Assembly (NCBI GenBank): GCA_045637165.1
Contig: JAZTYU010000010.1
Span: forward strand, 1-52,741
Direction of reading: 5' to 3'
Origin: Candidatus Enterousia sp.
GTDB lineage: Bacteria; Pseudomonadota; Alphaproteobacteria; Rs-D84
Length of the DNA: 52,741 nucleotides
Positions 29,736 through 32,827 of this stretch are shown in pieces (within the stretch, counting starts at the first letter, position 1; every line of letters begins with the position of its first letter). A program made the position numbers and the translations under genes. Below the pieces are notes generated by a model. That model ran no database searches and had not been told where the DNA came from. It saw only the letters and a list, made by a program, of their open reading frames with translations.

Positions 29736-30782
29736 TTATGCTGCATTTTGATATTGCTGACCCAACATCCACAATTTCAAAGTCTGCTGTTGCGTCATTT
29801 GCATTTGTACCTGTTTCATTTCGATACGTTTTCTTGCAACAATCAATGCAATTCTTGCATCTGTTTTTTGTGTCACTGTTTTGTGCAATCTTGGCTTTTG
29901 AACCATTGGCTTTTTCAAAGCCAACTTTTTTGCAACCGGCTTGCGAACAACAGGTTTCTTGACAGCGACTGTCTTTGGCATTGACTTTTTCTGTGCCACC
30001 GCCACCTTTGCCATCTGTGGCAAACGGACTGGTTCGACTGCTTGCTTTCGAATCGGCTTGGGCATCTGGGCAGACTTGACAACCTGTGCCAATTGAACAT
30101 TTTTCACCTGAATTGGCTGTGCAACTTTTACTGGCATCGCAACTGGCATTTGAATTGCCGCCGCATTGACCTGTGGCATTTGCATCTGTGCAGGTTGCAA
30201 CTGTTGTGGCCATGCAACATTTTCCGCCGTTCCTTTTTCCACTGACACTGATTGCAGCACTGACTGGGTTGCGACATTTTCTTGTGCCTGCTGAATTGCA
30301 ACATTCGCTTTTGCATTTCCAGCAACATTTTCAATTGTCAATTCTTCTGTATGTTCATTATACCGTGCCAAGACCATATTGATAACATCTATTGCATTTC
30401 GAATTGCCAACTCGGCATGACTACGCAACTGCTTTACCGTTTCTGCTTCTGGATTGATTTTATTTTCGCTATCTTTGTGCATCATAATTACACGTGACCA
30501 ATATTTTTTGTGTGATGCAAAGACATTATCTAAATATTTTGCTGCCAAATTTTTTTTGTTCTTGGTTTCAACAAAAGCCCCACATTGCATCAACGCCGTC
30601 TGCCAGGCACGCCCAAGCGAATATTTATTCAGCCAATTGACCCACGTAAAACCTGAAAACAATGTCATATAAGCATCTGCTAATTTTTTTCTATCATCTG
30701 GGGAAACTTTTTTTGCGATATCCGCCCCCACCTCTATTACAAAAATATTTTGTATTTCTGCTATACTTTTTTGCTTTTCCAT
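29736..30782 (-). CDS. hypothetical protein with Q/P/V/K low-complexity C-terminal half
   Basis: AAAGGAG RBS; GTTGAC-17-CTATAT promoter upstream; KKPVVRKPVAKK tail. Confidence 0.8.
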   Translation of the reverse strand: MEKQKSIAEIQNIFVIEVGADIAKKVSPDDRKKLADAYMTLFSGFTWVNWLNKYSLGRAWQTALMQCGAFVETKNKKNLAAKYLDNVFASHKKYWSRVIMMHKDSENKINPEAETVKQLRSHAELAIRNAIDVINMVLARYNEHTEELTIENVAGNAKANVAIQQAQENVATQSVLQSVSVEKGTAENVAWPQQLQPAQMQMPQVNAAAIQMPVAMPVKVAQPIQVKNVQLAQVVKSAQMPKPIRKQAVEPVRLPQMAKVAVAQKKSMPKTVAVKKPVVRKPVAKKLALKKPMVQKPRLHKTVTQKTDARIALIVARKRIEMKQVQMQMTQQQTLKLWMLGQQYQNAA

Positions 30783-30900
30783 ACTGAACTCCTTTCTATA
30801 TATACAGAAGCTCTGCAGTGCCGCATCACTCACCACAGTAAACTTATATAGTGCGACCGCCATATATTGTCAACCCCCACCTGTCAAGAAAATTTATTTT

Positions 30901-30929
30901 TTGACAATCTTCCTACAATAATCCAGAAT
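30901..30929 (+). promoter_or_regulatory. sigma70-type promoter of the OMP gene
   Basis: TTGACA-17 nt-CAGAAT. Confidence 0.6.
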
Positions 30930-30952
30930 ACGATTGTGCACATCACAAAAAA

Positions 30953-31017
30953 CATACTGTTGCCAATAATGGGCGGTATGGATATGCACCCACATCTTGC
31001 CAATAATGGGGGTGTGG
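30953..31017 (+). promoter_or_regulatory. tandem 28-nt hairpins with identical loop in a 5' leader
   Basis: CATACTGTTGCCAATAATGGGCGGTATG and CCACATCTTGCCAATAATGGGGGTGTGG. Confidence 0.8.
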
Positions 31018-31046
31018 CATTTCATCAAAACTAAGGAGTTAAAACG

Positions 31047-32084
31047 ATGAAAAAAACAATCAGTGCAGCAGTTGCGTTGTCAGTATTAGGTGCACCTGCA
31101 ATTGCAGCCAACATGGAAAACCCACTGTATATGCCAAAGCAAGGTGCAGTGTATTCCAAAACATCTGCTGGCGTTATGTACAAGGTTGCAGACGACACAG
31201 ATGCAATGCAATTAAAACAGCACGATGGTGCGACAGAATTTCCAATCTGGCGTGTTCACGAAGAATTGGGATATGGTATTTTGGACAACCTGGAAGCTTA
31301 CTTAAAAGTTGGCTACACACACGACGGCGACATTGACCGCAAAGGCATGCATCTGGGTCGTGCAGGATTGAAATACCGTGCAATTGACACGACAGATGGC
31401 TGGGTATGGGATTTGTATGCCGACGCACAGTTGGGTGGCATCAGCGAAATGTCCGGTGCATATACTGCCACAGGCTTTAACTATGACAACTATTCGAACG
31501 GTCGTTGGGGTTTCCACGTTGGAACATCTGTTGGCAAGACATGGTCAAAATTCAGTATGGCAGGATTTGTCGAAGCATTACGCACATTCGGCAACGACAA
31601 CAACAGCATTGAATTGGTTTCGATAGATACAAAAAATCCAATGTTTGGGGTTTTGAGTCGTGCACAGTTAACAGCATTGGGTTTTCCATCAGAAATTTCA
31701 GTTGATCTGAAATCTGCAACCGAAATTAATGCTGGTTTAAAAATGTTCTATCAGATGGATGACCGCTGGTCATTTGGTGGTGGTTTGACATACAAACATC
31801 ACTCTGACAACGGTGTAGAAGGCTTGGCAACAGAATTGAAAACATTGCCATCACCATATGCAGAACAGCAGGCGGCATTGGTCAAGGGTTTATTGGCCGA
31901 AGTTGCTGATATGGAAGACGGATTTGATGAATATGTATTAAATCTGACTGCTGCATATCAATTGGACGATGCAACACAAATTGCCGTCTATGGCGAATAT
32001 ACATTTGACGAAGCACACAAACAGTCTCAAAACGGCACAGACGTCAAGGCTGAATTAGGTGTTCGCTTGAATGTTCAGTTCTAA
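31047..32084 (+). CDS. outer-membrane beta-barrel, possibly a major OMP/porin
   Basis: TAAGGAG RBS, signal peptide, amphipathic strands, ends VRLNVQF; own terminator at ~32124-32150. Confidence 0.85.
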   Translation: MKKTISAAVALSVLGAPAIAANMENPLYMPKQGAVYSKTSAGVMYKVADDTDAMQLKQHDGATEFPIWRVHEELGYGILDNLEAYLKVGYTHDGDIDRKGMHLGRAGLKYRAIDTTDGWVWDLYADAQLGGISEMSGAYTATGFNYDNYSNGRWGFHVGTSVGKTWSKFSMAGFVEALRTFGNDNNSIELVSIDTKNPMFGVLSRAQLTALGFPSEISVDLKSATEINAGLKMFYQMDDRWSFGGGLTYKHHSDNGVEGLATELKTLPSPYAEQQAALVKGLLAEVADMEDGFDEYVLNLTAAYQLDDATQIAVYGEYTFDEAHKQSQNGTDVKAELGVRLNVQF

Positions 32085-32266
32085 TTTCAGAACAAAAAAT
32101 AAATAAACTAACATATATTGGACAAAGTCCCCAGGCAACTGGGGATTTTTACTACAACACCACTTCCCCGCCCACCATTTTATTTATCACTACAAAACAA
32201 GCTTCTGATAAAAAACATCAAGAAAAACAAAAAAAAATCCCCAAACGGGGAATTTTAATAACTACA

Positions 32267-32827
32267 TCAGACTTCATCATCTTCGACGTCGTCTTCATCC
32301 TCTTCGACGGCATTCAAATCGATTTCCTTTGGAATCCCCAAGATATCTTCTATCTTGTCCGACGCAGCATCTAAATCAAGTTTATGCAACACAGCAAATT
32401 CCTGGGCCATACGTTCCAACGCACGCAAATACAACTGACGTGCCGAAAAAGTCATTGTATCCGCCGCACTGCGTCGTTGCAAATCACGCACTACTTCGGC
32501 CAACTTCATTGGATCGCCAGAATTGATATTTTCTTCGTATTGTGCCGCACGTCGTGCCCAAATCATACGCTTTGCCCCTGCCTTACCCTTGGCCGACGCA
32601 ATTGCTTCGTCCATTTTCTTGGCTGTTGACAACGGACGCAGTCCTGAAATCTCAGCCCGTTCCAGTGGAACACGCAACGTCATATGATTGCGTTCAAAAT
32701 CAATCACCAGCAATTTAACCTTTTGACCGCCGATTACTTGTTCTTCGACACGCAAAAGTTTACCAACACCCTGTGTCGGATATACAACATATTGTCCTGT
32801 TTTAAAGTCTAGTTTCTTACTTGGCAT
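32267..32827 (-). CDS. carD: CarD/CdnL-family transcription factor
   Basis: FKTGQYVVYPTQGVG, LRVP, WARR...INSGD..LAEVVRDL. Confidence 0.95.
   Translation of the reverse strand: MPSKKLDFKTGQYVVYPTQGVGKLLRVEEQVIGGQKVKLLVIDFERNHMTLRVPLERAEISGLRPLSTAKKMDEAIASAKGKAGAKRMIWARRAAQYEENINSGDPMKLAEVVRDLQRRSAADTMTFSARQLYLRALERMAQEFAVLHKLDLDAASDKIEDILGIPKEIDLNAVEEDEDDVEDDEV

What the first reader, a model, noticed from the sequence alone, without database searches (positions are those of the whole stretch)
30953..31017. Twin covarying RNA hairpins with identical GCCAAUAAUG loop in an OMP leader: candidate new cis-regulatory RNA
Seen: two 28-nt hairpins, 37 nt apart, between the promoter (30901-30929) and the RBS. 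They share TTGCCAATAATGGG exactly. Five of nine stem pairs differ yet stay paired (A-U/C-G, U-A/A-U, A-U/C-G, C-G/A-U, G-C/C-G), and three U-G wobbles are kept at the same positions. This points to selection on RNA structure in the sense strand rather than a DNA repeat. Known analogues: guanidine-II riboswitches (twin hairpins, identical loops) and tandem sites for dimeric RNA-binding proteins, but I do not recognise this loop. CCA and UGG could pair within or between loops. Inference: an undescribed riboswitch, protein-binding element or stability element controlling a major OMP.
Basis: partly seen in the sequence, partly recalled or inferred. Interest (0 to 1): 0.8.

Follow-up and report, generated by a model that had tools for sequence, protein, structure and literature searches.

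The report
Structured leader RNA of OMP gene
The two hairpins are real and belong to a conserved, previously undescribed folded RNA leader in front of an outer-membrane-protein gene of tiny-genome gut Alphaproteobacteria (Candidatus Enterousia and relatives); it most likely protects the mRNA and acts as a docking site for an unknown factor.

Summary
They (30953-30980, 30990-31017, + strand) are copies of one module: a variable, covarying lower stem; an invariant U.G / N-N' / U.G stack; an invariant 5' UG bulge; and a 3-bp CCR/YGG cap with an ANNA tetraloop. An outer helix P1 (30936-30944 with 30981-30989) encloses hairpin 1. A weak helix P4 (31020-31026 with 31046-31052) pairs the start codon in most relatives.

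- **Occurrence:** the module stands in 1-3 tandem copies. Every copy whose downstream gene I checked precedes one orphan OMP gene family.
- **Distribution:** 115 of 121 sampled genomes of one family of ~0.9 Mb genomes carry it. It was found in 0 of 29 genomes of sister families and 0 of 149 other families of the class.
- **Known families:** Rfam 15 has no match.
- **Own genome:** no Hfq, CsrA or ProQ was found; an RNase E/G gene is present.

Best reading (about 0.45): a cis-acting 5' UTR whose 5'-terminal helices shield the mRNA, and whose invariant bulge module is a specific binding site, probably for a protein. A riboswitch of the guanidine-II type is not supported: the cap pairs in cis, the copy number varies, and the loop varies. 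The TSS and the binding factor are not shown. This is a new RNA family of a familiar kind, of moderate interest.

The parts
30901..30929 (+). Promoter-like site of the OMP gene: TTGACA, 17 nt, CAGAAT. The inferred TSS is at about 30935-30938.
   Evidence: Consensus scan, 10 of 12 matches. TTGACA is invariant, and an AAnAAT-like second hexamer lies 6-7 nt before P1 in the aligned relatives. The TSS itself is not mapped.
30936..30944 (+). P1, 5' arm (GUGCACAUC). It pairs with 30981-30989, encloses hairpin 1, and is inferred to start at or next to the 5' end of the mRNA.
   Evidence: MFE. On 59 leaders, 8 of 9 P1 pairs change on both sides and 93.6% of cells pair.
30945..30952 (+). A-rich unpaired linker (ACAAAAAA) between the P1 5' arm and hairpin 1.
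   Evidence: Unpaired in the MFE. A-rich in most relatives, but CGUGACA in two genera.
30953..30980 (+). Hairpin module copy 1: 8-bp lower stem including U.G / G-C / U.G, UG bulge (30961-30962), CCA/UGG cap, AUAA loop.
   Evidence: R1 gives 47.6 bits, E 6.4e-10.
30981..30989 (+). P1, 3' arm (GAUAUGCAC). It abuts hairpin 1 on one side and hairpin 2 on the other with no linker.
30990..31017 (+). Hairpin module copy 2: 8-bp lower stem including U.G / C-G / U.G, UG bulge (30998-30999), CCA/UGG cap, AUAA loop.
   Evidence: R1 gives 40.9 bits, E 5.4e-8.
31020..31052 (+). P4: UUUCAUC (31020-31026) pairs with GAUGAAA (31046-31052). The SD AAGGAG (31033-31038) lies in the loop and the start codon (31047-31049) in the stem.
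   Evidence: MFE. The AUG is paired in the MFE of 56 of 69 leaders, and a UUCAUC-like word is present in 55 of 69. There is one compensatory case, UUCAUG with CAUGAA, in L035. P4 is absent from some genera.
31047..32084 (+). Gene controlled: a 345-aa orphan outer-membrane-type protein with a signal-peptide-like N-terminus that ends ...VQF.
   Evidence: No Pfam family matches. Some homologues carry PF13505 (OMP_b-brl) or PF28279. It is present in 193 of 201 family genomes.
29736..30782 (-). Divergent neighbour gene X: a conserved helical N-domain and a K/P/A/V/Q-rich tail. It is a conserved partner of the OMP locus, and no role in the element is shown.
   Evidence: (found beside the leader in 51 of 59 OMP loci).

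Best explanation
The whole 5' UTR of the OMP mRNA (about 110 nt, 30936-31046) is a cis-acting structured RNA.

Shown:
- It has three covarying helices (P1, hairpin 1, hairpin 2) and, in most relatives, a weak fourth helix that pairs the start codon.
- The two hairpins are copies of one module. Its lower stem is free to vary. Its U.G / N-N' / U.G stack, UG bulge and C-G cap pairs do not vary.
- In every genome searched, the module was found in front of this OMP gene family and nowhere else.

Inferred:
1. Transcription starts 6-8 nt after the -10 hexamer, so P1 sits at the very 5' end. P1 abuts hairpin 1 and hairpin 2 without linkers, so the three helices can stack into one rod with the 5' end held at the P1/hairpin 2 junction. 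This would hide the 5' end from RNase E-type, 5'-end-dependent decay and give a long-lived mRNA, as in the E. coli ompA leader.
2. The invariant bulge module is a sequence-specific docking site, most likely for a protein, and one factor binds per module. Hairpin 2 ends 29 nt before the AUG, within reach of the 30S footprint and next to P4. A bound factor could therefore set translation initiation as well as stability.

The factor is unknown. Hfq, CsrA and ProQ were not found in this genome.
For: Structure:
- 59 leaders, 31 pairs: 96.3% of cells pair, 23 pairs change on both sides, and 0 of 500 shuffles reach this. Sliding the 3' partners drops pairing to 37-46%.
- 82 hairpins: U.G is invariant at both places (82 of 82), C-G at the first cap pair is invariant (82 of 82), and the third cap pair is A-U in 73 and G-C in 9.
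- The sense strand folds better than the antisense strand.

Specific association:
- In the own genome there are 4 hits and no more, in the leaders of the two OMP paralogues; the next best hit has E 4.6.
- No antisense copy exists at up to 1 mismatch.
- 115 of 121 family genomes carry it, mostly as 2 hits. The listed hits whose OMP position one search also lists lie just upstream of that gene, and 7 further loci read all have the OMP downstream.
- In the public genome scan, 37 of 38 real loci have the OMP directly downstream; the other is cut by the locus end.

Modular, additive use:
- Copy number is 1, 2 or 3.
- Spacing is 37 nt in 53 of 66 adjacent pairs.

5'-terminal position:
- A conserved TTGACA and a -10-like hexamer lie 6-7 nt before P1.
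- An RNase E/G gene is present.

Transcription:
- The leader stands in RNA libraries joined to the CDS: a metatranscriptome contig matches 30979-31136 exactly.

Conservation:
- The module core stays invariant where the OMP itself has diverged to about 50% identity.

Precedent (recalled):
- The ompA 5' UTR stabiliser. I saw only the titles of Arnold et al. 1998 and Bouvet & Belasco 1992 in the reference list of PMC3997798.
Against: - No TSS is mapped. The RNA contigs cannot show one, and a relative's contig runs 62 nt upstream of hairpin 1, into the promoter region.
- No binding factor is identified.
- The module is dispensable. Two genomes of the same genus (G109, G092) have short unstructured leaders. 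Two other genera (G012, G004) have a different leader, and G002 has degenerate copies.
- Generic protection does not need invariant U.G pairs or a bulge, so stability alone does not explain the conservation.
- A protein site does not need P1.
- P4 is missing in 13 of 69 leaders.
- All stacking and footprint arguments are inference from sequence.
Confidence: 0.45

Rival explanations
1. Pure mRNA stabiliser or expression enhancer. The helices act only by their structure, blocking RNase E entry and keeping the SD exposed in the P4 loop. No trans factor is involved, and the invariant nucleotides serve RNA folding or metal binding.
For: P1 is inferred to be 5'-terminal. RNase E/G is present, and Hfq, CsrA and ProQ were not found. 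The distant OMP homologue of the sister family, and G012, also have a simple hairpin in the leader, inferred to lie near the 5' end. The ompA precedent is recalled; only titles were seen.
Against: Stems that act only by pairing should let U.G drift to U-A or C-G, as the neighbouring pairs do. Here U.G is kept in 82 of 82 hairpins at two places, and the UG bulge never changes.
Confidence: 0.25
2. Small tandem-hairpin riboswitch. Each module, or a pair of modules, binds a small molecule or ion, and the leader shifts the P4/start-codon pairing to control synthesis of an OMP that lets that compound in.
For: The internal-loop nucleotides are invariant and the tandem U.G pairs are classic metal or ligand sites (the latter is general knowledge). 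P4 sequesters the AUG next to hairpin 2 in 56 of 69 leaders. Riboswitches before OMP genes exist, for example cobalamin before btuB (recalled).
Against: Only about 10 nucleotides per module are conserved. The copy number varies from 1 to 3. I found no conserved alternative pairing between the modules and the P4/SD region; a possible one with P1 is not kept in the window's own sequence. Loop-loop pairing is contradicted. P4 is absent in some module-bearing genera.
Confidence: 0.12
3. Processing or targeting signal. The P1-hairpin 1 stack (about 20 bp with bulges) or the modules are cut or bound by an RNase (RNase III type), or they are the target of a trans-encoded small RNA.
For: The stacked length of about 20 bp fits a double-strand RNase substrate (inference). 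An exact RNA contig starts near 30979, inside the leader; a contig end is very weak evidence.
Against: No complementary copy of the module exists in the 96.5% complete genome at up to 1 mismatch. RNase III sites do not as a rule need invariant bulge sequences. I did not search for an RNase III gene.
Confidence: 0.08
4. Not RNA: a DNA-level repeat or operator for a transcription factor, or a short leader peptide (the frame from the ATG at 30970 to the TAA at 31032-31034).
For: The element lies next to back-to-back promoters. The listed ORF 30867-31034 holds that frame.
Against: The stem sequences vary while pairing is kept, the opposite of an operator. The conserved T.G pairs would be C.A mismatches on the other strand, and the antisense strand folds worse. 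Module spacing of 32-40 nt and indels after hairpin 2 break any reading frame. No SD precedes that ATG.
Confidence: 0.03

Closest known systems
E. coli ompA 5' UTR mRNA stabiliser (5'-terminal stem-loop hp1 plus hp2). Recalled; I saw only the titles of Arnold, Yu & Belasco 1998 and Bouvet & Belasco 1992 in the reference list of PMC3997798.
   Same: A long structured 5' UTR of an outer-membrane-protein mRNA. Two or more stem-loops, the first inferred to sit at the 5' end. The organism has an RNase E/G gene.
   Different: No sequence or Rfam relation. The ompA hairpins act by position and pairing, whereas this leader has a repeated module with invariant U.G pairs and a UG bulge. The ompA leader works with Hfq and MicA (recalled), and Hfq was not found here. 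A stabilising effect is not tested here.
Guanidine-II riboswitch (mini-ykkC): two hairpins with identical ACGR loops that pair loop to loop (recalled).
   Same: Two small hairpins with the same conserved apical part, variable covarying stems and a variable linker, upstream of an RBS.
   Different: No Rfam hit. The loops are ANNA and variable. The conserved part is a bulge below a 3-bp cap. The cap pairs in cis. One to three copies occur. The gene context is an OMP, not guanidine transport or breakdown.
Bulged-hairpin protein operators used singly or in tandem: phage MS2/PP7 coat-protein operators and iron-responsive elements (recalled).
   Same: A short hairpin whose stem may vary while a 5' bulge and a few nucleotides near a small loop are fixed. 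Copies are used additively in a UTR to control translation or stability.
   Different: No sequence likeness. No binding protein is known here. Aconitase-type and coat-type binders are not indicated. This is a likeness of design only.
Orphan 5' UTR RNA motifs found by comparative genomics and held in Rfam.
   Same: A conserved, covarying intergenic structure with a narrow taxonomic range and one gene association, and an unknown ligand.
   Different: It is not among the 4227 Rfam 15 families at gathering score or at E up to 10.

Membership tests
Any Rfam 15 family | Match to the family covariance model at its gathering score | tested here: not met
   The whole window gives only 3 tRNAs. For 30700-31200 at E up to 10, only 4 noise hits to snoRNA and miRNA models appear, at 14.6-18 bits against gathering scores of 38-70.
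Guanidine-II riboswitch (mini-ykkC) | ACGR tetraloops closed by C-G on both hairpins (recalled definition) | tested here: not met
   The loops are AUAA, AGAA, ACAA, AAAA, AUCA, AUGA, ACGA or UUCAA, closed by A-U or G-C.
Guanidine-II riboswitch (mini-ykkC) | Two hairpins that must act as a pair through loop-loop pairing | tested here: not met
   Leaders have 1, 2 or 3 copies. Mixed caps keep cis pairing and break trans pairing (L037; L172).
ompA-type 5' UTR stabiliser | Stem-loop at the extreme 5' end of the mRNA with at most a few unpaired nucleotides | tested here: inconclusive
   P1 starts 6-7 nt after the -10-like hexamer, which fits. The TSS is not mapped, and contigs give no ends.
ompA-type 5' UTR stabiliser | 5'-end-dependent RNase E pathway present in the organism | tested here: met
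   PF10150 RNase_E_G matches at E 6.3e-86 in a 597-aa open frame, G000:C5:7389-8213.
ompA-type 5' UTR stabiliser | The leader prolongs mRNA half-life | not testable with these tools
   This needs half-life measurements with leader mutants.
CsrA/Rsm binding sites | GGA in the hairpin loops, and a CsrA gene in the genome | tested here: not met
   There is no GGA in the loops. PF02599 was not found in the 96.5% complete genome.
ANTAR dual-hairpin target | Two hairpins with hexaloops, the second overlapping a terminator (recalled definition) | tested here: not met
   The hairpins have tetraloops on a 3-bp cap. No terminator-like site lies between the hairpins and the CDS.
REP/BIME-type dispersed repeats | Many dispersed copies per genome | tested here: not met
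   The own genome holds four copies, all in the two OMP leaders. Relatives have mostly 2 per genome.

The most novel reading that the evidence does not exclude
The module is a new minimal ligand- or factor-sensing RNA. One to three copies of a U.G / N-N' / U.G plus UG-bulge hairpin would form, together with P1, a rod that hides the mRNA 5' end, and would switch stability and start-codon access (P4) of the main surface protein of partner-dependent, tiny-genome gut Alphaproteobacteria. This would be either a new small riboswitch class or a dedicated RNA-protein control system in a lineage where the common global RNA chaperones were not found.
Probability: 0.15. Interest if true: 0.8.

Novelty: new variant of a known kind. 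Interest (0 to 1): 0.55.

Why it matters
Candidatus Enterousia and its relatives (order Rs-D84) are uncultured gut bacteria with genomes under 1 Mb. They are thought to depend on partner cells (PMC12306168; abstract and passages read). Their envelope proteins are likely central to that lifestyle, yet nothing is known about how they are regulated.

This leader is one of the best-conserved non-coding features of the lineage. Its core stays invariant where the OMP it precedes has diverged to about 50% identity. No Hfq, CsrA or ProQ was found in this genome. The leader therefore gives a defined, small and testable RNA: a 28-nt module with clear mutant designs for studying post-transcriptional control in reduced genomes. 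It is also a ready covariance model for annotation and a candidate new Rfam family.

Its narrow range and simple architecture limit its wider impact unless a ligand or a new RNA-binding protein is found.

Tried and rejected
- **Rfam:** gathering and E-value scans found nothing.
- **RNA-seq:** one study with two metatranscriptome runs, held only as contigs. They show the leader joined to the CDS but no ends, so the TSS is not resolved. The gap in cover over 30870-30923 is no evidence.
- **Class-level search:** the only hit outside the family (G290, E 0.0097) lies inside rplN and is chance.
- **Viral contigs:** 80 loci read of at least 116 stretches. None has the module; the two with stems of 6-7 pairs lack the invariant U.G.
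- **Gene X as the trans factor:** it is a conserved neighbour, but it is present in G109, which lacks the module. With the single query used, it was not found in the other module-bearing genera. It has no Pfam family. Its AF2 model is a helical bundle with no PDB match at E below 1, and the Atlas gave no usable hit. It is neither supported nor excluded.
- **Alternative pairing of UUCAUC with the P1 3' arm as a switch:** possible in many relatives, but not kept in the window's own P1, so I rejected it.
- **Mimicry of a cellular RNA:** I considered rRNA, tRNA and S15-type G.U/G-C motifs from memory. R1 finds no other copy in the own genome. I did not check whether the rRNA operon is in the assembly.
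- **Literature:** the 'Enterousia' search found 16 papers, none in the listing on RNA motifs. The motif strings found 4 unrelated papers. PMC1369620 is not held.
- **Earlier scan notes:** none for this place or sequence.

Full report
**1. What is in the window**

The + strand reads as follows:
- a promoter-like site, TTGACA (30901-30906), 17 nt, CAGAAT (30924-30929);
- about 110 nt of leader;
- the SD AAGGAG (31033-31038);
- the ATG (31047) of a 345-codon gene (31047-32084).

They share one 14-mer, which occurs exactly twice in the window.

RNA folding of 30930-31060 gives -34.8 kcal/mol (z -2.77), and 30934-31052 gives -34.3 kcal/mol (z -3.26). The fold draws each hairpin as an 8-bp stem, a 2-nt UG bulge on the 5' side, a 3-bp CCA/UGG cap and an AUAA loop.

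The same fold shows two further helices:
- P1 (30936-30944 with 30981-30989) encloses hairpin 1.
- P4 (31020-31026 with 31046-31052) pairs the start codon and leaves the SD in its loop.

The hairpins fold at -9.5 and -11.5 kcal/mol on the sense strand. On the antisense strand they fold at -4.9 and -7.2 kcal/mol.

**2. The gene and the organism**

The protein has a signal-peptide-like start and ends ...VQF. It has no Pfam family. Some of its 1416 database relatives carry PF13505 (OMP_b-brl) or PF28279, and the few that are named are 'hypothetical protein, Alphaproteobacteria bacterium' MAGs.

The assembly is 0.996 Mb in 35 contigs and 96.5% complete. Public records that hold the same leader are titled Candidatus Enterousia or Alphaproteobacteria bacterium MAGs, many from animal guts and faeces by their titles. 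Enterousia (order Rs-D84) has been described as a reduced-genome, probably partner-dependent gut lineage (PMC12306168; abstract and passages read).

**3. Conservation**

The own genome has a paralogous OMP (71% identity) on contig C20. It carries the same leader, with two A-to-G changes that turn A-U pairs into G.U pairs.

The OMP is found in 193 of 201 sampled genomes of the family.
- All 30 best loci carry the twin hairpins.
- I fetched 40 further upstream stretches by the OMP coordinates alone, 15 of them from other genera.
- The single-hairpin covariance model R1 finds 73 modules in 39 of these 40. Thirty stretches have two, two have three (L038, L039) and seven have one (one of these cut by a contig end). 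L041 has none.
- R1 was built from many of these hairpins, so most matches are by construction. It also found copies that were not in its seed (L045, and hairpin 1 of L055).

**4. Covariation**

I counted 82 distinct hairpins on the structure with the bulge and cap:
- 97.5% of cells pair.
- 8 of 11 pairs change on both sides (221 cells).
- 0 of 500 shuffles reach the covariation score.
- Sliding the 3' partners drops pairing to 38-52%.

Three pairs never vary: U.G at two places, separated by one free Watson-Crick pair (C-G 39, G-C 31, A-U 6, G.U 5, U.G 1), and the first C-G of the cap. The third cap pair is A-U in 73 hairpins and G-C in 9. One hairpin has the middle cap pair inverted. The UG bulge is invariant.

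One caveat applies. The 82 hairpins were collected with a regular expression that required at least 5 stem pairs and a paired cap. The share of paired cells is therefore inflated; the type and number of double changes are not.

I also counted 59 full leaders aligned by MAFFT without reference to structure:
- 96.3% of cells pair.
- 23 of 31 pairs change on both sides.
- P1 has 8 of 9 such pairs and 93.6% pairing.

**5. Cis or trans cap**

In L037 the caps are CGG/CCG and CCG/CGG. In L172, L038 and L039, CCA/UGG and CCG/CGG copies stand side by side. Pairing within each hairpin is kept in all of them. Pairing between hairpins would give mismatches. With copy numbers of 1 to 3, this removes the guanidine-II-like loop-loop model.

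**6. Distribution and gene association**

- **Own genome:** R1 finds four hits (E 6e-10 to 5e-8), all in the two OMP leaders; the next hit has E 4.6. No reverse-strand copy of the 14-mer exists at up to 1 mismatch.
- **Order:** 115 of 121 genomes of the family have a hit, and 0 of 29 genomes of the five sister families do.
- **Class:** in 149 genomes of other families there is one marginal hit, inside rplN.
- **Public genomes:** Thirty-eight are real. Thirty-seven of these have the OMP directly downstream, and the other is cut by the locus end. Forty-two are chance matches without stems.
- **Odd labels:** two real loci are labelled Muribaculaceae and Bacteroides fragilis bins, which looks like binning error.
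- **Viral contigs:** no real copy in the 80 loci read.

**7. Where the module is missing**

I examined the leaders of five of the six family genomes in which R1 found nothing:
- G109 and G092 (same genus; OMP 53% and 52% identical) have short, unstructured leaders.
- G012 and G004 (other genera) have other leaders, G012 with a plain hairpin.
- G002 has two degenerate copies.

The sister family f3 has only a distant homologue (26-40% identity over part of the query, in 12 of 19 genomes). In all 8 leaders read, that homologue has a different leader with one plain hairpin. The element is thus an invention of one family. It is strongly kept there, but it is dispensable.

**8. Context that bears on mechanism**

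- Hfq, CsrA and ProQ families were not found in the own genome; RNase E/G was.
- No terminator-like site lies in the leader.
- P1 begins 6-7 nt after the -10-like hexamer in the window and in the aligned relatives. The mRNA is therefore inferred to start with P1.
- P1 abuts hairpin 1 and hairpin 2 without linkers. The three helices could stack, with the 5' end at the P1/hairpin 2 junction. This is inference.
- Hairpin 2 ends 29 nt before the AUG.
- P4 is predicted in 56 of 69 leaders and is weak, -4.5 to -8.5 kcal/mol where it is predicted. It has one compensatory case, in L035.
- RNA-library contigs join hairpin 2 to the CDS: an exact contig covers 30979-31136. A relative's contig covers both hairpins and 62 nt upstream. 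Contigs show no ends.

**9. Reading**

The leader is a real, new, family-specific structured 5' UTR. Its 5'-terminal helices fit the ompA type of protection against 5'-end-dependent decay. That precedent is recalled; I saw only titles.

Plain protection does not explain two invariant U.G pairs and an invariant bulge in every copy. A few fixed nucleotides around a bulge, free stems, a variable loop and 1-3 additive copies are the usual signature of a binding site, most often for a protein.

I therefore commit to a combined reading, 5'-end protection plus a specific factor site, at about 0.45. The rivals are:
- structure-only stabiliser, 0.25;
- small riboswitch, 0.12;
- RNase or sRNA target, 0.08;
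- DNA operator or leader peptide, 0.03.

**10. Comparison and novelty**

The element is not a member of any Rfam family, nor of the guanidine-II, CsrA-site, ANTAR or REP kinds; their defining features were tested and not met. It works most like the ompA leader, with an added operator-like module.

I found no paper on it. The searches were made, on a library that lacks most subscription journals, and I consulted no supplements.

Earlier notes of this scan describe other conserved leaders before OMP or surface-protein genes in small-genome bacteria (e1-761110, e1-1219071). These are different sequences, and I did not test them here.

Noticed in passing
window 30882-30906: The palindrome TGTCAAG-N-TTGACA upstream of the leader is two -35 hexamers back to back, 13 nt apart. 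One serves the OMP gene (+) and one the divergent gene X (-). The arrangement is conserved in most relatives. RNA contigs of gene X from two runs both end at 30861, which is a weak hint only.
   Followed up: partly
window 29736-30782 (-); paralogue at L003 474-1295 (-): Gene X is a fast-evolving protein of about 175-400 aa with a conserved helical N-domain. In this copy it has a K/P/A/V/Q-rich tail with a weak compositional hit to histone H1-like HC2. It is transcribed divergently from the OMP leader in 51 of 59 OMP loci and was duplicated together with the OMP. It often has further tandem paralogues. The AF2 model has pLDDT 84.3 with no PDB match at E below 1. Its function is unknown.
   Followed up: partly
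G000 contig C20:7924-9048 (L003 1456-2583): A second OMP paralogue, 71% identical, carries the same P1/twin-hairpin leader and the same kind of divergent neighbour. A whole three-part unit (gene X, leader, OMP) was therefore duplicated.
   Followed up: yes
L038 and L039 (genus g6): These leaders have three modules in tandem, with spacings of 37 and 32-33 nt. L054, L066 and L067 keep only the cap of copy 1, with a decayed lower stem.
   Followed up: partly
L118 and L157 (public records): Contigs labelled as Muribaculaceae and Bacteroides fragilis bins carry the Enterousia-type leader and OMP. These are probably mis-binned contigs.
   Followed up: partly
L350-L357 (sister family f3): The distant OMP homologue of the sister family has its own conserved leader. 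It has a TTGATT-N17-TATAGT promoter-like site and one plain hairpin (CACAA...UUGUG) before a GAAAGGA SD.
   Followed up: no
window 32234-32256: A bidirectional terminator-like hairpin (TCCCCAAACGGGGA flanked by A and T runs) lies between the convergent OMP gene and the CarD-like gene (32267-32827, -).
   Followed up: no
whole genome G000: No Hfq, CsrA or ProQ family match was found in a 96.5% complete alphaproteobacterial genome. RNase E/G is present as a 597-aa open frame.
   Followed up: partly
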